A DNA stretch of 14,106 nucleotides from a virus. Taxonomy: Duplodnaviria; Heunggongvirae; Uroviricota; Caudoviricetes. Position numbers and translations under genes: made by a program. Shown piece by piece: positions 857 through 14,106 of the stretch (the first letter of the stretch is position 1; each line of letters starts with the position of its first letter). The notes beneath the pieces were generated by a model. The model saw only the letters and a program-made list of their open reading frames with translations. It was not told the origin of the DNA and made no database searches. The stretch spans positions 1-14,106 of the IMG/VR virus record IMGVR_UViG_2563366844_000002; one strand, written 5' to 3'.

Positions 857-2514
857 ACCCCATCAAACGCCGCAAGTCGCTCTTTGTGGCTGTCGCTCAT
901 ATCAAATGCAAATTCCTCATGCTCTGCCTGGAATGTGCCAAACGCCATCAGCGCCGCAACGCTCGGGTCTATCTTGTTGGATGATTTTTTCTTGTTCGGC
1001 TTGATATTGGCGTTCGCGTCACTCTGCATCACAACATTACTCATTGACCAGGCCAGCACCGGATCACCACGATGCACAATCACCTTCCGGTTAACAAAAA
1101 CTTCGAACGATTTCGCCGCCGGACTGAAACGAAGGTATGTTTGCGGGAACGGCTCCACCTCTAATCCTGCCCCCTGTAGCTGCGTCCTCAGGTGCGTGGC
1201 GTTCCATGTATCGAAGCCCACCAGCCTGATATTGAAATTCTCTGCATCCGCCATGATGTCATCACGGATACGGTCATAATCAATGCAGTCACCCGGTGTT
1301 GTGCGTATCCAGCCCGCCTTTACCCACTGGCGATAGATGGCGCGGTTTTTATTGGCGGGGTTCTGTAGCTGAAATTCCGGCAGATAGTGACGGGAAACCA
1401 GCATAATCTTTTTACCGACCGGAAAGGCATAGCACACGCTGGAAATATCGCTGGTTGATGATAAGTCCAGCCCCGCGTAGCACTCCTGCCCGTATAAATC
1501 CGCCTCCGCGAACGTTCCGGCGCACTCCGCCCATGCACCGTTACCCATCCACGGCGTAGCCCCCTGACACCAGATATTGAATCGCTTGGTGAGCATTTCC
1601 ACCCACTGCGACGGAATACCCCGCGCTTTCTGGATGGTTGAGGCCAGTTTTTCACGATCGACGGAAACATCGATATTTGGATTCGCCTTTATCCACATCG
1701 CCGGATCGTCAACCTCGCTTTCATCATCCAGCTCGTAAATCAGAACGAACATGGATTCGTTCATCTCTTCACCATCCAGTATCTGACAGCAATAGTCATA
1801 GTGTTGTTTACAGGCTGAAACAACGTTGCTCCCCGATGTGGTGATGGCAAATAACAGCCCCTCCGGACGCGCCCCCATCCCCAGCTCAAGTGCGGAATAA
1901 ACCCCGTTGTCTGGGTGCAGGTGATATTCATCCACAATGGCAAGACTCGGGTTTGTCCCCTCAATGGTTGCCGCTTTTGCTGCCAGTGGCTTTAACAGGC
2001 TGTTGGTTTTCGGGTGTATCACCTTGTGCGCCTGAATATTTACCCGCTTTCGTAACGGTCGGGATAAAAGGCACATCTGACGCGCATCATCAAACACGAT
2101 CCGCGCCTGATCACGACTCACGGCGGCGGTGTAAATATCCTGCTGCCCGTTTTCCATAACCAGAAACCAGTTAGCCAGGATAGCGGCGACCGTGGATTTG
2201 GCATTTTTTCGCGGTACTTCAATGAATGCGCTGGTGTATTTGCGCCGTCCGGTGGCCTTAACCTTAAAGCCCAGGATGCAGGCAAAGGCGAACTGCTGCC
2301 ACGGCTCCAGTTCAATGGGGCTACCGCGCATTGCGCCTTTTACGTGCGGGCACACCCGGGAAAAGGCAATAAACCGCTCCACGACCTCCGGATCGAACGT
2401 GTAAAGGGAGTTTTCAAGGTCAGAAAAATACCGTTTAACGGCCTGTTTCAGTCGTTTACAGGCCGTAATTTTGCCGTTTTTTACGCCTTCTGCGTACTCA
2501 TGCCAGGCGGTCAA
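853..2514 (-). CDS. terL: Phage terminase large subunit
   Basis: 553-aa ORF with the N-terminal ATPase pattern and overall layout typical of phage large terminases. The annotated start is a TTG at 2514-2512, preceded by GAGGAAGAGGA at SD distance and overlapping the TerS 3' end by 17 nt. Confidence 0.85.
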   Translation of the reverse strand: MTAWHEYAEGVKNGKITACKRLKQAVKRYFSDLENSLYTFDPEVVERFIAFSRVCPHVKGAMRGSPIELEPWQQFAFACILGFKVKATGRRKYTSAFIEVPRKNAKSTVAAILANWFLVMENGQQDIYTAAVSRDQARIVFDDARQMCLLSRPLRKRVNIQAHKVIHPKTNSLLKPLAAKAATIEGTNPSLAIVDEYHLHPDNGVYSALELGMGARPEGLLFAITTSGSNVVSACKQHYDYCCQILDGEEMNESMFVLIYELDDESEVDDPAMWIKANPNIDVSVDREKLASTIQKARGIPSQWVEMLTKRFNIWCQGATPWMGNGAWAECAGTFAEADLYGQECYAGLDLSSTSDISSVCYAFPVGKKIMLVSRHYLPEFQLQNPANKNRAIYRQWVKAGWIRTTPGDCIDYDRIRDDIMADAENFNIRLVGFDTWNATHLRTQLQGAGLEVEPFPQTYLRFSPAAKSFEVFVNRKVIVHRGDPVLAWSMSNVVMQSDANANIKPNKKKSSNKIDPSVAALMAFGTFQAEHEEFAFDMSDSHKERLAAFDGV

Positions 2515-5708: not shown

Positions 5709-6878
5709 CTAGCCAGCTTTCATTTCCAGAATTTTGATGGCGTTTGAATCCACCACACCACCGCCCAGATATTTATCCGTGTGGACCTTGTAGAATCCGG
5801 GTTCAGTAATGTTGTCCGGTCGGGTGCGAATCCCTGTTACATGATCAACGATGAAATAACCACGACTGAAATCTCCAACCGCTAGCGGTGCTTTTCCTGT
5901 GCCGATGTCCGGCATGGACTCCAGGCAGTAAACAGGACGACCAAGCAACATATCCGGCGCACCTTCTTTAAGGCTGTCGCGCCAGATATAATCGCCGTTC
6001 TCATTTTTCAGCTTCTGTAGTGCCCCTGCCGTGCCCGAGTTCATCACCCAGACGGCATTTTTGCGGTATTTCGCTTTCAGCTTGTAGAGAATGTCGATCA
6101 GTTCGTCCGCTGTAATGGCGGTTCCACTTGCCGCTACCATTTTTTCAATGGTGCCAAAAGCGCGGGTTTTGTCACTGGTCGCCGCACGGGTGTAAGCCAT
6201 GAAGCCTTTCGGCTTGCCGTTACCGTCGCCATTAACAAAATCATCCTCTTCGGTGCTGGCGAACGTGTCGGCAATTTCGGAGGATAACCAGCCCAGAATA
6301 TCCACCTCTGAAAAATCCAGGATTTCCTGCGTGGTTTTCGGGTAGGCGTAGATCGGATTCAGCTTGATGGTTACGCGTTCAATTTTCGGGGTGTTGGTTT
6401 CACTGCGTGCGCTGCCTTCTGTGCCTCGTCCTACAGTTGCGCCGCCAGTGGAAACCAGTTTCTGAAACTCATTTGATTTTGCGGTCTTCACGGTCGCGAT
6501 CACGCGCATAACACTGTCATCCTGTAGCTGGCGCATGACTTCGCGATCGAGCTCAGGAATTACGGTATATCCACCATCCCTGCCGCTGTCAGTGCTGGTG
6601 GACAGTGATCGCACATCTCCGGTTACGATGTAGTTACGCAATTCATCAGATGATAATTTCTGGATGCCCGTTCCTGGCTTGCTGCGTTCTTCATCAGCCA
6701 CAGACTCGAGGCGGGAAATTTCTGTGTCGAGGGAATCGGCTTTTGCACGCAGTTCATCAAACTGTTTGCCCTCGTCATCGTTCAGGCTGCGGTTTTCACT
6801 GTCGGCTTTTTCCAGCAGGGATCGCATCTGGTTTTTCAGGGCGTTTTTTTGCTGGCGGAGTTCGATTAATTTCTTCAT
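5709..6878 (-). CDS. Major capsid protein (HK97 fold family)
   Basis: 389 aa with an N-terminal coiled-coil/delta-like region (MKKLIELRQQKNALKNQMRSLLEKADSE...) followed by an HK97-type capsid body. It is the first gene of the packaging operon. Confidence 0.9.
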   Translation of the reverse strand: MKKLIELRQQKNALKNQMRSLLEKADSENRSLNDDEGKQFDELRAKADSLDTEISRLESVADEERSKPGTGIQKLSSDELRNYIVTGDVRSLSTSTDSGRDGGYTVIPELDREVMRQLQDDSVMRVIATVKTAKSNEFQKLVSTGGATVGRGTEGSARSETNTPKIERVTIKLNPIYAYPKTTQEILDFSEVDILGWLSSEIADTFASTEEDDFVNGDGNGKPKGFMAYTRAATSDKTRAFGTIEKMVAASGTAITADELIDILYKLKAKYRKNAVWVMNSGTAGALQKLKNENGDYIWRDSLKEGAPDMLLGRPVYCLESMPDIGTGKAPLAVGDFSRGYFIVDHVTGIRTRPDNITEPGFYKVHTDKYLGGGVVDSNAIKILEMKAG

Positions 6879-11094: not shown

Positions 11095-11139
11095 TGGTAC
11101 GTACCATTTGATTTCAGTTTATAACGATGGTACGTACCA
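11095..11139. promoter_or_regulatory. Two identical 12-bp perfect palindromes TGGTACGTACCA (operator candidates)
   Basis: Copies at 11095-11106 and 11128-11139, centres 33 bp apart. The second abuts the ATG of the plus-strand RHH gene at 11140. AT-rich -10-like hexamers on both strands lie between them (around 11118-11125). Confidence 0.6.
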
Positions 11140-11322
11140 ATGCAAGAAGAAAATGTGAAACCAAAATTTGATCGCTCCGGCAGCACAAAGAAAAACATCC
11201 GCTTCGAAGACACATTGTTGCAACAAATTAACGAAGTTGCAGGGCCTGGTAATTTCAGCTCATGGGTAAAAAATGCTTGTCGTGATAAGCTACGCAAAGA
11301 AGGCATAGAACCCAAAGGCTGA
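11140..11322 (+). CDS. Small ribbon-helix-helix-like DNA-binding protein (putative regulator), divergent from the replication operon
   Basis: 60 aa; KKNIRFEDTLLQQINEVAG...NFSSWVKNACRDKLRKEG fits a beta-strand plus two-helix RHH layout. It has its own downstream plus-strand terminator at 11417-11446. No clear SD, so possibly leaderless. Confidence 0.5.
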   Translation: MQEENVKPKFDRSGSTKKNIRFEDTLLQQINEVAGPGNFSSWVKNACRDKLRKEGIEPKG

Positions 11323-11461: not shown

Positions 11462-11665
11462 CTATGCTGCCTTACCTGAATTAACTCGGTCACGGTTTTG
11501 CACCCAGTCCATAACTTCGGAAAGCAACCAACCTACAGAACGCCCACCAAGATTACGGCGAGACGGAAAGCTCCCTTTTTTCTCCAGTTCATAGCGAGTG
11601 GTACGGCTAACCCCGGTTAACTTACTGCATTCAGCCTCACGGATTATGCGGTCAAATTGAGCCAT
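11462..11665 (-). CDS. alpA: AlpA-family transcriptional regulator
   Basis: From the ATG at 11665-11663 the 67-aa product MAQFDRIIREAECSKLTGVSRTTRYELEKKGSFPSRRNLGGRSVGWLLSEVMDWVQNR has the typical AlpA HTH pattern. Start is preceded by GGGGGGAGTG. Confidence 0.8.
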   Translation of the reverse strand: MAQFDRIIREAECSKLTGVSRTTRYELEKKGSFPSRRNLGGRSVGWLLSEVMDWVQNRDRVNSGKAA

Positions 11666-11675
11666 CACTCCCCCC

Positions 11676-11864
11676 TTACACCGTCTGCGTTCTGCGAGTG
11701 GATGCAAGATAAGCATCGAGATCAGTGCGCATATACAGCACTTTGCGCCCCAGCTTATGAAAAGGGATTTTTACCTTGCCAGTACACGCCCAGTTAGCAA
11801 GAGTCTGGACACTTACCCCCAAATGCTCGGCAGCTTCTTTGCGGGTCATCTTTTCTAAATGCAT
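11676..11864 (-). CDS. Excisionase-family (MerR-like HTH) DNA-binding protein
   Basis: KEAAEHLGVSVQTLANWACTGKVKIPFHKLGRKVLYMRTDLDAYLAS fits the excisionase/HTH_17 pattern. ATG at 11864 is preceded by GGTGA; alternative starts are GTG at 11873 or ATG at 11849. Confidence 0.7.
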   Translation of the reverse strand: MHLEKMTRKEAAEHLGVSVQTLANWACTGKVKIPFHKLGRKVLYMRTDLDAYLASTRRTQTV

Positions 11865-11936
11865 GAGTATCACCGTATACTTCTGATTAAGAACAGGTAT
11901 ACGTTATTTAGCGATGGGGAAGTCTTGAAGACAGGA

Positions 11937-11966
11937 AAACCAGATACAAAATCGCATATCTGGTTT
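11937..11966. other. 10-bp-arm inverted repeat AAACCAGATA-N10-TATCTGGTTT (candidate terminator for the int-cargo transcript, or operator)
   Basis: Arms at 11937-11946 and 11957-11966. On the minus strand it is followed by UUUCCUGUCUU. Sits 40 bp downstream of the AT-rich cargo ORF and upstream of the excisionase-family gene. Confidence 0.3.
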
Positions 11967-12005
11967 ACATGGCTGAAATCTGGATTACAGAGGATAAAAC
12001 TGGAT

Positions 12006-12692
12006 TTATTCTTTGTCTCCAATAACTAACTTAAAATCCCTGTTTTTTTGCGGGGATTTTGGATTCATCCCCGACTCCTTAAGCCATCTCTCTATAGTCC
12101 CAACTACAGGGACATCATTCCATTTATTGCGTAAGTGCGCGTATATCTCTGCGGATAGCCCGGGTAAACTGGCATTAGGGTATTTTTTCCAAGTGTTACA
12201 AGCTATAGATAACGCTGTTGATTTATGCCTGTTTGTTTTTCCTTTCTTTGCTTTACTACGGTCTTCACTGATAATTTTCTTTACATTAGCTATATCACGT
12301 ACTGATTTTAATAAATTCTCCGACACTAAAATCGCATATCTTTCACGTAACTGATCTGCAAGTCTGTTGAAACCAAGAACTTCAAATATAATGGCAGCTT
12401 TCAAAATATCATTGAATTCTGAATATGCACTATTAAATTTTTTATCAAAATCATCTCCATATCCGGCACATACAGAAATATTAACCTTTAAATCCTTATT
12501 TTCTATCTCTGACGATAATGATAATCTTTCCTCCAGAGACATTTTAGATGGTGTGATATTTGCCATATCGCATATCGTTTTTTTTACAAAAGAAGACGCC
12601 AGTTCATCTCTAATATAATCTGCAATAGTATTCATATCCTTCGCATCATTATGGTCAAATTCTATTGCAGCAATGATTTTATTTTCTGACAT
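12006..12692 (-). CDS. Hypothetical 228-aa protein, strongly AT-rich (putative accessory/cargo gene)
   Basis: ATG at 12692-12690 preceded by GGTGG; start overlaps the integrase stop by 14 nt. GC is markedly lower than the rest of the element by eye. No family recognised; the C-terminal third may be helix-rich/HTH-like (weak impression). Confidence 0.7.
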   Translation of the reverse strand: MSENKIIAAIEFDHNDAKDMNTIADYIRDELASSFVKKTICDMANITPSKMSLEERLSLSSEIENKDLKVNISVCAGYGDDFDKKFNSAYSEFNDILKAAIIFEVLGFNRLADQLRERYAILVSENLLKSVRDIANVKKIISEDRSKAKKGKTNRHKSTALSIACNTWKKYPNASLPGLSAEIYAHLRNKWNDVPVVGTIERWLKESGMNPKSPQKNRDFKLVIGDKE

Positions 12693-14106
12693 TCAAACCA
12701 CCATTTGAATTAACGATACTAAATAGTAATGCGCGTTTCTCACTGTCACTCATACTCTCCAGTGCGGAAAGCAATTGCGCATCGATAGATTTTTTACTCT
12801 CCACCAGCCCGGCATGTTCCAGAATTGCCCGTTCTATCCGTGACGCTGGCTCCAGCAGTTCATCAGCACCAAAATGTAAATACCCCTGCGTTACGTCAGC
12901 ACTTCGCATAGTACGGTGATTCATCAGGCGCTTGAGGATGTAATTGCCCACGCCCACCAGTTCGGCAACCGTTCCGAACGTCCGGCGTGCATCGTGCCAT
13001 TTGAATGGTACAGGGGAGAGCATTTCATCGTTCGACTCTGGAACAGTAGCCGCGCTTATCCGGTCTATGATGTGCCGTGTTTCCTGAATCACTCCCTTCA
13101 CACCAGGAAACACCAGAACATCATCAGCGTTTTTTATTTTCAGTCGGCGGTGGAACATTTCCCGCAACGTATCAGTAATCGGTAATTCGAGCGGATCCCC
13201 GTTTTTCGTGGTGTCTATCCAGAAAAAACGACCGCCCATATTCACGCGATCCCACGTAAGGCCAAAAATTTCTGATTTCCTCAGTCCGGTAAAAAGCGCC
13301 ATTTCCACGGCATCGCATACCGTCACCGCTATATCATCCCTTTCCTGTTCGCCCTGGTCGCGCACAGCAGCTACAGCAGCAAACCAGCGGGGAAAATCAT
13401 GCAGGCGGATACGTTCCGTTTTTCTTACCGTTCCGTGCCACTGGCGCTTGGTGCTCAGTACCAGAGTCGGCGGATCCGGTAAAAGAGTATTACCCGCATC
13501 ATCACGGTAATGATCATGCGCAAACCGACACACAGCACGTAGCGCACGCGCCCATAAATCGGCCTGTGCCTTGCTTCCTGTACCAACCCCAGCCCGTAAC
13601 GTGGTTTTATCAGCACCGAACCATACAGCCCCATCAGTGATGGCCTTATGCCGTTGTTCCACCCGTTCGCGGGAAATACTGGCGAGGGTATGGGCCATCC
13701 AGTCACCGGAATAATTCTGTAATATGCTGCGGTACTGTTTTTCTGTGGCGGGTTTCAGGCGGTGGCCACGATTTTTTACGTAGGCGTCAATCGCCTCACT
13801 CAGCGTTATCATGGCCTTGTTGTTAGTGCGCTTTGCTATGTTCGGATTTATCCCCGTTGTGGCGACTTCGCCAAGGAGTTCCATAGCTTTAGCCCTGGCA
13901 TTATCCACGCTCAGATCAGGAAAACGCCCCAGCGTTGCACGAATAAATTTTCCGTTACGCTTACGGGAAATGCAGAAACTTTTCACACCAGACGAACCTA
14001 CACGGACACGCAGCCCGTTAACCTCCGTATCACCATATTCGACCTGTCCATGTTCCGGCGTTGGCAGTTCTGCAATTTTTACTTTAGAGAATCTGAATAA
14101 TTTCAC
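12679..14106 (-). CDS. int: Tyrosine integrase (phage integrase family); 5' end at or beyond the window edge
   Basis: N-terminal arm-type pattern (KIAELPTPEHGQVEYGDTEVNGLRVRV...KSFCISRKRNGKFIRATLGRFPDLSVDNARAKA) and C-terminal catalytic residues (R in TGLRKSE, H-x-x-R in HDARRTF, Tyr in GYLHF). The ORF is open to position 14106, where the first codon is GTG, so the true start may lie outside the window. Confidence 0.9.
   Translation of the reverse strand: MKLFRFSKVKIAELPTPEHGQVEYGDTEVNGLRVRVGSSGVKSFCISRKRNGKFIRATLGRFPDLSVDNARAKAMELLGEVATTGINPNIAKRTNNKAMITLSEAIDAYVKNRGHRLKPATEKQYRSILQNYSGDWMAHTLASISRERVEQRHKAITDGAVWFGADKTTLRAGVGTGSKAQADLWARALRAVCRFAHDHYRDDAGNTLLPDPPTLVLSTKRQWHGTVRKTERIRLHDFPRWFAAVAAVRDQGEQERDDIAVTVCDAVEMALFTGLRKSEIFGLTWDRVNMGGRFFWIDTTKNGDPLELPITDTLREMFHRRLKIKNADDVLVFPGVKGVIQETRHIIDRISAATVPESNDEMLSPVPFKWHDARRTFGTVAELVGVGNYILKRLMNHRTMRSADVTQGYLHFGADELLEPASRIERAILEHAGLVESKKSIDAQLLSALESMSDSEKRALLFSIVNSNGGLNVRK

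What the first reader, a model, noticed from the sequence alone, without database searches (positions are those of the whole stretch)
12006..12692. AT-rich 228-aa ORF translationally coupled to the integrase: candidate cargo, possibly an anti-phage or exclusion function
The gene is far more AT-rich than its neighbours, which suggests separate horizontal origin. It sits in the int-to-alpA junction, a position where accessory genes are commonly found in phage satellites. Its start overlaps the integrase stop by 14 nt and has its own SD-like GGTGG. I recognise no family from the sequence. Satellites are known to carry defence or competition genes in accessory slots, so a single-gene abortive-infection or exclusion protein, or a regulator, is a reasonable hypothesis.
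Basis: inference. Interest (0 to 1): 0.7.

Follow-up and report, generated by a model that had tools for sequence, protein, structure and literature searches.

The report
Integrase-coupled regulator with swappable sensor head
The AT-rich gene after the integrase is probably not free cargo: it is a fixed part of this phage satellite's integrase module and most likely a DNA-binding switch at the promoter of the satellite's master activator, with an N-terminal half that is swapped between near-identical islands as if it senses different helper phages.

Summary
There is a 228-aa ORF on the minus strand (12006-12692). Its GC is 0.31-0.40 against 0.51 for the neighbours. It overlaps the integrase stop by 14 nt, has a GGTGG Shine-Dalgarno sequence, and matches no curated family.

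The "cargo/defence" reading is only partly supported. In all 18 related contexts examined, a homologue sits directly after the integrase and before the HTH_17/AlpA gene, whatever the replication or capsid module.

The protein has two modules:
- A conserved C-terminal ~85 aa: a basic arm plus three helices. Fold and sequence hits to HTH domains are weak but point the same way.
- An N-terminal head that falls into 61 unrelated clusters and assorts independently of the C-domain.

Three to five 9-10-bp sites (two 18-bp palindromes 28 bp apart in one type) start at the gene's stop codon. They are spaced 20-21 bp apart and run towards the HTH_17/alpA gene. Their sequence changes with the C-domain type. 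It does not change with the integrase, HTH_17, replication or packaging modules.

Best explanation: an integrase-coupled, signal-responsive regulator of the satellite's alpA operon, analogous but not homologous to Stl of Gram-positive PICIs. DNA binding and sensing are inferred, not shown. The family appears undescribed.

The parts
12006..12692 (-). Gene X: 228-aa two-module protein (WP_016231469.1)
   Evidence: purifying selection; 155 representative clusters at E<=1e-3 among 1.84e9 proteins
12276..12692 (-). X residues 1-139: variable N-terminal module, made of a head (~aa 1-80) and a long helical hairpin (aa 80-150 in the model). Candidate sensor and oligomerisation part.
   Evidence: Homology to the L012 allele breaks 12 nt before the ATG and resumes at about aa 139. 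61 head clusters among 208 members; the window's head type pairs with both C-domain classes. AF2 model.
12006..12275 (-). X residues 140-228 plus stop: conserved C-terminal domain, made of a basic arm (SKAKKGKTNRH) and three helices. Candidate HTH DNA-binding domain.
12679..12702 (-). Translational-coupling junction: 14-nt overlap of the int stop with the X start (12679-12692), plus GGTGG SD (12698-12702)
   Evidence: Overlaps of 4-19 nt in 17 of 18 homologous contexts.
12679..14106 (-). Tyrosine integrase, 475 aa, co-transcribed partner of X
   Evidence: At least 95% identical in 87 E. coli genomes, at the nfeF site in the six loci examined.
11937..12006 (.). Array of four AWCTGGWTT sites: 11998-12006, 11978-11986 and 11958-11966 (same orientation, 20-bp steps; the first abuts the X stop codon), plus 11937-11945 inverted. 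Candidate X operators.
   Evidence: 7 sites in the window against 0.47 expected; 4 fall within these 70 bp. Covariation with C-domain type.
11874..11936 (-). Rest of the X-to-HTH_17 intergenic region: candidate activator-dependent promoter (-10-like TAAATA at 11905-11910, no -35) and an inverted repeat (11897-11903 / 11874-11880) touching the HTH_17 SD
   Evidence: (no consensus sigma-70 promoter). The promoter assignment is inference.
11676..11873 (-). HTH_17 (Xis/AlpA-like) gene, first gene downstream of the array. Likely true start is the ATG at 11864.
11462..11716 (-). Phage_AlpA-family gene (likely 68 aa, from 11668): master activator of Gram-negative PICIs
   Evidence: role from PMC6092414

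Best explanation
Gene X encodes an integrase-coupled, signal-responsive transcription regulator of this capsid-forming PICI. It is translated together with Int from the int transcript, so it is present while the island is quiescent. Its conserved C-terminal domain (basic arm plus HTH-like three-helix unit) binds the four phased AWCTGGWTT sites. These run from its own stop codon to about 26 nt upstream of the -10-like element of the HTH_17/alpA promoter. There, X sets the state of the master-activator operon. Most likely it holds the operon off and blocks read-through from int-X. Less likely, it acts as a latent class-II-type activator. The long helical hairpin would mediate oligomerisation along one face of the DNA. 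The hypervariable N-terminal head would be the input domain that receives a helper-phage signal, so head swapping would re-tune which helper induces the island. Functionally this is the Gram-negative counterpart of Stl/Rpr, without homology to it. SHOWN: gene anatomy; conservation of position; modular mosaicism; phased repeats; and covariation of repeat sequence with C-domain type only. INFERRED: DNA binding itself; the promoter; the sign of regulation; and phage sensing.
For: (1) Position: 18 of 18 contexts read int -> X -> HTH_17/AlpA, across E. coli, Salmonella, Pectobacterium, Serratia, Superficieibacter and several assemblies and metagenome contigs whose organism was not shown. This holds with DUF927, AAA_25 or D5_N replication modules and with HK97-type or ClpP-capsid late modules.
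(3) Sites: arrays of 3-5 sites at 20-21-bp steps start at the X stop codon in five types; in a sixth type (L025) two 18-bp palindromes 28 bp apart follow it. The sequences are AWCTGGWTT (type A), ANCTGGYWA (B1/B2), TAGCATGC (B3), AGTACT core (L031) and ATATAAAGGGGTTTATAT (L025).
(4) Site type follows the C-domain type and nothing else. The integrase is 93-97% identical between type-A and type-B E. coli islands. The HTH_17 recognition region is identical between window and L010 and near-identical between L015 (A sites) and L017 (B3 sites). Type-A sites occur with three different replication modules.
(5) There are two nested exchange units: the N-head alone, or whole X plus sites plus the first ~22 codons of HTH_17. 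This is the pattern expected for a sensor module and for a repressor-operator cassette.
(6) Heads fall into 61 clusters against 2 large C-domain classes, with independent assortment.
(7) The target makes biological sense: alpA is the master activator of Gram-negative PICIs. Its induction by helpers is unexplained, and a global repressor is described as 'unclear' (PMC6092414; bioRxiv 10.1101/2022.09.08.507074).
Confidence: 0.5

Rival explanations
1. One reading: X is a single-gene anti-phage (abortive-infection or exclusion) protein. The variable head senses phage components and the conserved C-domain acts as effector or anchor.
For: The N-terminus is hypervariable among near-identical islands, as in defence hotspots. 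X is co-expressed with int while the island is quiescent. Satellites are known carriers of defence genes, and Gram-positive PICIs carry accessory genes between int and stl (PMC6092414).
Against: None of 12 diverse members matches a PADLOC model. The conserved part is a small basic-arm/three-helix unit with no enzymatic, pore or nuclease signature. The gene is a fixed component of the int module rather than one of many alternative cargos (18 of 18 contexts). The phased sites that covary with the C-domain have no role in this model.
Confidence: 0.12
2. X is a satellite-versus-satellite immunity determinant. It is a repressor-operator cassette that silences incoming or tandem islands of the same type. 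Head diversity then serves hetero-oligomer incompatibility rather than phage sensing.
For: The C-domain and its sites are exchanged as one cassette, like lambdoid immunity regions. Distinct site types exist. Tandem or multiple copies of such islands occur in one genome, for example strain A33 with 5 places.
Against: This does not explain 61 head types on only two main C-domain classes, with the same sites retained. It overlaps largely with the best explanation, since the DNA-binding regulator part is the same.
Confidence: 0.15
3. X is an integrase accessory protein (recombination directionality or architectural factor). It works stoichiometrically with the unusually long 475-aa Int.
For: Translational coupling with int is strict in 17 of 18 contexts. 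Int of this clade has a C-terminal extension whose last residues are part of the swapped cassette. Four of 45 C-domains give weak Exc (excisionase) Pfam hits.
Against: The sites lie about 2.1 kb from the int-proximal island end, far outside any attP arm. HTH_17/AlpA Xis-like proteins are already present. Site type changes while Int stays 93-97% identical. In L025 X is uncoupled from a different, 403-aa Int.
Confidence: 0.08
4. The repeats are replication iterons or packaging sites, and X is their binding protein.
For: Phased direct repeats resemble iterons.
Against: Identical type-A sites and C-domains occur with DUF927, AAA_25 and D5_N replication modules and with two different capsid/packaging modules. 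PICI origins map downstream of pri (PMC10111431).
Confidence: 0.03

Closest known systems
Stl / Rpr master repressors of SaPIs and other Gram-positive PICIs
   Same: Satellite-encoded. Sits between int and the early/lytic operon and is transcribed in the same direction as int. Highly divergent between otherwise related islands. The proposed logic is the same: hold the island off until a helper-phage protein binds (PMC6092414).
   Different: No sequence homology and no Xre/cI-type HTH. The DNA-binding module is C-terminal and is the conserved part. The gene is co-directional with, not divergent from, the operon it would control. Sensing and repression are untested.
AlpA / Vis / HTH_17 excisionase-like regulators of Gram-negative PICIs and P4
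   Same: Small DNA-binding regulators in the integration zone next to int, controlling island induction.
   Different: X is three times larger, has two modules, and does not meet the Pfam AlpA/HTH_17 thresholds (only 2 of 45 C-domains give weak hits). It coexists with both an HTH_17 and an AlpA gene in the window.
Bro-N network proteins of the PICI 'Bro zone', including CapR of Vibrio PLE
   Same: Domain-swapping DNA-interactive satellite proteins, at least one of which is a repressor (PMC10111431).
   Different: No Bro-N, AntA or KilAC domain is detected in X. X lies in the integration zone upstream of alpA, not downstream of it.
Lambdoid phage immunity modules (cI/Cro plus operators)
   Same: The regulator's DNA-binding part and its cognate operators are exchanged together as a cassette; several specificity types exist in one population.
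   Different: The sites here are three to five 9-10-bp elements at 20-21-bp phasing. The variable part is the non-DNA-binding half. There is no LexA/cI-type cleavage domain.
Tc3/mariner/paired-type HTH domains
   Different: All scores are below family thresholds. There is no transposase catalytic domain and no transposon context.

Membership tests
Capsid-forming PICI (the island that carries the gene) | int, alpA and primase/rep, plus own capsid, protease, portal, connector, HNH, TerS and TerL, and no tail genes | tested here: met
   Pfam: Phage_integrase, Phage_AlpA, DUF927, SSB, Phage_capsid, Peptidase_S78, Phage_portal, Phage_connect_1, HNH, Terminase_4, TerL. No tail family was found among the larger ORFs scanned. 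74% DNA identity to the O157:H7 EcCIEDL933-type late module.
Stl/Rpr master repressor of PICIs | Homology to Stl/Rpr, or an N-terminal Xre/cI-type HTH | tested here: not met
   No HTH_3/HTH_31/cI family hit in X or in 12 relatives.
Stl/Rpr master repressor of PICIs | Located between int and the early operon, divergent from it | tested here: inconclusive
   The position is met in 18 of 18 contexts. The orientation is co-directional, not divergent.
Stl/Rpr master repressor of PICIs | Binds operators at the early promoter and is released by a helper-phage protein | not testable with these tools
   Only indirect evidence: phased sites that covary with the C-domain and a hypervariable head.
Known anti-phage defence systems (PADLOC-DB 2.0) | HMM match to a defence protein model | tested here: not met
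   0 families for X (E<=1) and for 12 diverse family members (E<=0.01).
Defence-hotspot cargo | Unrelated genes alternate at the same slot between conserved flanks | tested here: not met
   Every occupant of the slot is a member of one family sharing the C-domain. Only its N-terminal half alternates.
AlpA / HTH_17 (Xis-like) regulators | Pfam PF05930 or PF12728 above the gathering score | tested here: not met
   No hit for X. 2 of 45 C-domains give HTH_17 at E>=0.013.
Helix-turn-helix DNA-binding domain (generic) | Three-helix unit with a recognition helix, supported by significant fold or profile similarity | tested here: inconclusive
Bro-N network proteins | Bro-N, KilAC, AntA or related domain | tested here: not met
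   Bro-N and AntA genes occur downstream of HTH_17 in L030 and L031, as separate genes.

The most novel reading that the evidence does not exclude
X is the missing helper-phage sensor for a large subset of Gram-negative PICIs, cf-PICIs and P4-like satellites. In this reading it is a non-homologous analogue of Stl, made with the integrase. It sits on phased operators at the alpA promoter and is switched by direct binding of helper-phage proteins to its N-terminal head. The 60 or more head types would then be a natural repertoire of phage-protein sensors exchanged by recombination in an arms race with helpers.
Probability: 0.3. Interest if true: 0.8.

Novelty: new variant of a known kind. Interest (0 to 1): 0.62.

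Why it matters
How Gram-negative PICIs sense their helper phages has been open since 2018. alpA must be switched on by the helper, yet no island repressor or sensor is known (PMC6092414).

This family offers a concrete, testable candidate for a sizeable group of satellites. It comes with predicted operators and with natural head-swap and operator-swap variants that could serve as ready-made specificity controls.

If correct, it gives three things:
- A new DNA-binding domain family.
- A catalogue of modular phage-sensing domains.
- A way to predict or re-programme satellite-helper pairing, which matters for the spread of cf-PICIs between species.

If wrong, the gene is still a conserved, unannotated core component that satellite-finding tools currently ignore.

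Tried and rejected
- Curated libraries gave nothing significant: Pfam, PADLOC, PHROGs and NCBIfam on X; Pfam, PHROGs and PADLOC on 12 relatives.
- PDB sequence profiles of the full family and of 45 C-domains gave no meaningful hit.
- Foldseek of the C-domain against PDB was not significant. The afdb50 library was unavailable.
- tblastn against 50,697 phage records gave no match, so X is not a phage gene.
- Rfam on the whole window found no family, so there is no P4-type CI/isrK immunity RNA.
- YfjH, the gene between intA and alpA of E. coli K-12 CP4-57, is unrelated.
- The genome-contig scan with the C-domain pattern was too strict and returned only 3 loci. Contexts were obtained through the look-up of encoding contigs instead.
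- The sigma-70 promoter scan found nothing in the intergenic region, so the sign of regulation could not be argued from promoter overlap.
- The idea that the sites are integrase arm sites, HTH_17 sites, iterons or pac sites was rejected, because none of those modules covaries with site type.
- Literature searches for a described homologue or an int-alpA regulator found none in the held library.

Full report
**1. The observation**

The ORF is real and matches the description. It lies at 12006..12692 on the minus strand, starts with ATG and encodes 228 aa.

- The integrase ORF upstream (12679..14106, minus; Phage_integrase + Arm-DNA-bind_3) ends inside it, giving a 14-nt overlap.
- GGTGG lies 5 nt before the ATG.
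- GC is 0.307 in the first 139 codons (GC3 0.223) and 0.396 in the last 89. The integrase is 0.508 and the window 0.504.
- Pfam, PADLOC, PHROGs and NCBIfam give no match.
- pN/pS against close alleles is 0.16-0.24, so the gene is under purifying selection.
- RefSeq calls it WP_016231469.1, 'hypothetical protein'.

**2. The setting**

The window is a capsid-forming PICI. All genes listed below are on the minus strand except one.

- Early side: int, X, an HTH_17 gene, a Phage_AlpA gene, a plus-strand DUF3950 gene, an Icd-like gene, DUF4222, a DUF927 primase and SSB.
- Late side: HK97-type capsid, S78 protease, portal, connector, HNH, TerS and TerL.

In the six E. coli loci examined the island sits next to nfeF. 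87 of 5,426 complete E. coli genomes carry this integrase at 95% identity or more.

**3. X is a fixed component of the integrase module, not an alternative cargo**

I examined 18 genomic contexts of homologues. They come from E. coli, Salmonella, Pectobacterium, Serratia, Superficieibacter and several assemblies and metagenome contigs whose organism was not shown. The homologous proteins themselves carry source names from further Enterobacterales genera, including Klebsiella, Enterobacter, Citrobacter and Proteus.

- In all 18 the order is integrase, X homologue, HTH_17/AlpA.
- In 17 of them the X start overlaps the integrase stop by 4-19 nt.
- This holds although the islands carry three different replication modules (DUF927, AAA_25, D5_N/DUF5906) and two different head modules.
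- Within E. coli, 58 genomes carry the window's C-terminal-plus-intergenic cassette and 24 carry a second type, against the 87 genomes that carry the integrase.
- All homologues are AT-rich, with GC 0.33-0.40. AT-richness is therefore a family trait rather than a sign of recent import.
- The family is absent from 50,697 phage records.
- It is also absent from the EcCIEDL933-type cf-PICI of O157:H7, where int and alpA are separated by 364 nt of non-coding DNA.

**4. Two modules**

Alignments show a conserved C-terminal ~85 residues. In the window these read SKAKKGKTNRH..ALSIA.NTWKKYPNASLPGLSAEIYAHLRNKWNDVPVVGTIERWLKESGMNP...KNRDFKLV. The N-terminal parts are unrelated in sequence and length across proteins of 200-285 aa.

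- A profile search of 1.84 billion representative proteins finds 155 clusters at E<=1e-3, and the domain is C-terminal in every tail inspected.
- The family consensus is A(S/K)KPRN.HY.EA..I...TW.KYP.ASK......L...F.G.VS..TL.RWIK..G..PPKP.KYTSF.LV.
- Among 208 members with a complete C-domain, the N-terminal heads fall into 61 BLAST clusters, while the C-domains form two large classes.
- The window's head type occurs with both classes.
- At the DNA level, the window and a 266-aa allele (L012) are 95% identical through int. They lose homology 12 nt before the X ATG and regain it at about codon 139.
- Against the type-B allele (L010), homology returns only at about codon 22 of HTH_17.

So there are two nested exchange units: the head alone, or the whole gene with the intergenic region.

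**5. What the C-domain looks like**

- AlphaFold gives a disordered basic arm, then three helices with two one-residue strands (pLDDT 75).
- In the full-length model, helices 155-170, 176-190 and 197-206 have pLDDT above 90. They follow a long helical hairpin at 80-150.
- Foldseek is not significant. Its weak top hits include Pax paired domains and an IS transposase HTH.
- Scanning 45 diverse C-domains against Pfam gives only sub-threshold hits, but several of them are to HTH families: HTH_Tnp_Tc3_2 in 6, Exc in 4, plus HTH_17, MerR and HTH_32/28/23.

This is consistent with an HTH preceded by a basic arm, but it is not proof.

**6. The adjacent DNA**

Four AWCTGGWTT sites begin at the X stop codon.

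- Three are in one orientation, at 11998, 11978 and 11958. One is inverted, at 11937. The steps are 20-21 bp.
- The motif occurs 7 times in the window against 0.47 expected, and 4 of the 7 fall within these 70 bp.

Equivalent arrays start at the stop codon of the homologue in other islands, but with different sequences:

| C-domain type | Loci | Sites | Spacing |
|---|---|---|---|
| A | window | four AWCTGGWTT | 20-21 bp |
| B1/B2 | L010, L018, L020 | four ANCTGGYWA (TAGCTGGCTA-like) | exactly 21 bp |
| B3 | L017 | three TAGCATGC-type | 21 bp |
| L031 type | L031 | five AGTACT-core | 20 bp |
| L025 type | L025 | two 18-bp palindromes ATATAAAGGGGTTTATAT | 28 bp |

Site type follows the C-domain type and nothing else.

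- The integrase is 93-97% identical between type-A and type-B E. coli islands.
- The recognition half of HTH_17 is identical between window and L010, and near-identical between L015 (A sites) and L017 (B3 sites).
- Type-A sites occur with all three replication modules.

There are two caveats. The sites abut the C-domain coding sequence, so linkage contributes to the correlation. B1 and B2 C-domains also differ without a clear change of site.

**7. The target**

The array ends 26-28 nt upstream of a conserved -10-like element (TAAATA, TAATAA, TGATAT or TAGATA) that has no -35 partner (no consensus promoter). A conserved inverted repeat, ATCACCG-N18-CGGTGAT, follows and covers the HTH_17 Shine-Dalgarno sequence.

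The downstream genes are HTH_17 and AlpA. According to the literature, AlpA is the activator that starts the Gram-negative PICI cycle. [quoted passage not shown] I found no paper that describes a gene between int and alpA or this family.

**8. Interpretation**

The simplest model that uses all the observations has four parts.

- X is made together with Int while the island is integrated.
- Its C-domain occupies the phased sites, probably as an oligomer built on the helical hairpin.
- From there it controls the alpA-operon promoter.
- The head is an input domain under diversifying exchange, most plausibly for helper-phage proteins.

Whether X represses (Stl-like, also acting as a roadblock to int-X read-through) or activates on signal cannot be decided. 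The last site is centred near -43 of a promoter that lacks a -35, which fits either. I put about 0.75 on 'sequence-specific DNA-binding regulator with adjacent cognate sites', about 0.5 on the full model, and about 0.3 on direct helper-phage sensing by the head.

**9. Rivals**

It leaves the covarying sites unexplained and meets no defence model.
- Satellite-satellite immunity determinant: a close cousin of the main model.
- Integrase accessory or directionality factor: fits the coupling, but not the position of the sites (about 2.1 kb from the island end) or the lack of covariation with Int.
- Iteron or pac-site binding: contradicted by the independence from replication and packaging modules.

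**10. Novelty and score**

Master regulators that tie a satellite to its helper are a known kind (Stl/Rpr, CapR of PLE, AlpA). This would be a new, non-homologous variant in Gram-negative satellites, with an unannotated DNA-binding domain and an unusually modular sensor half. It is ordinary in being 'a regulator next to an integrase'. It is interesting because it sits exactly at an acknowledged gap in PICI biology and comes with sharp, cheap tests. Interest 0.62.

Noticed in passing
window 11095-11139 and 11140-11322 (+): Two perfect 12-bp palindromes TGGTACGTACCA, 33 bp apart start to start. They sit directly upstream of the only plus-strand gene in the early region, a 60-aa DUF3950 (YlcI/YnfO-family) protein. 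They lie in the divergent region facing the Icd-like/DUF4222/primase operon. This looks like a second repressor-operator pair, controlling the replication operon.
   Followed up: partly
window 11874-11903; L010, L002, L006, L015-L018, L024, L030 equivalents: Conserved inverted repeat (T)ATCACCG-N18-CGGTGAT(A) covering the Shine-Dalgarno sequence of HTH_17 in all C-domain types. It has a few compensatory changes (L024) and one U-G pair (L006), and is partly degenerate in the window. It could be an SD-sequestering RNA hairpin or an operator for HTH_17/AlpA.
   Followed up: partly
window 2164-2172, 6452-6460, 6826-6834: Three further exact AWCTGGWTT matches outside the array, where about 0.5 are expected for the whole window. 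Two lie in the 5' part of the capsid gene. They may be chance or secondary sites.
   Followed up: no
window 11462-11716 vs L001, L014, L010: The window carries both an HTH_17 gene and a Phage_AlpA gene. Many otherwise 99%-identical E. coli islands lack the second gene or have a different gene there (a 213-bp difference in the best megablast hits).
   Followed up: partly
L001 (E. coli A33, NZ_CP028742.1): At least two copies of the island lie in tandem at the nfeF site and five matching places occur in the genome. Many genes are annotated as frameshifted. This may be assembly error or genuine tandem satellites.
   Followed up: no
L022/L023 (protein P0095, 302 aa): A type-B allele has lost its stop codon and reads through the whole operator array to overlap the HTH_17 start. 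In L022 the integrase is split in two. This is probably a decaying island.
   Followed up: no
L028 (E. coli O157:H7 86-24, EcCIEDL933-type cf-PICI): The related late module (74% DNA identity) is joined to a different, 409-aa integrase, and there is no X gene. Instead a 247-aa hypothetical protein follows alpA. The X module is therefore specific to certain integrase clades.
   Followed up: partly
window 12679-12860 (Int C-terminus): Integrases of this clade (about 470-485 aa) have a roughly 60-residue C-terminal extension beyond the catalytic domain. Its last residues belong to the swapped cassette. A possible contact with X was not examined.
   Followed up: no
L025/L026 (protein P0211): A distant X homologue sits in a P4-like/PICI element with a 403-414-aa integrase. 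It is not overlapped with int (207-nt gap containing its own repeats) and is followed by AlpA, Rha, Ash and a Zn-ribbon/Toprim/DUF927 primase. The family therefore extends beyond the 475-aa integrase clade.
   Followed up: partly
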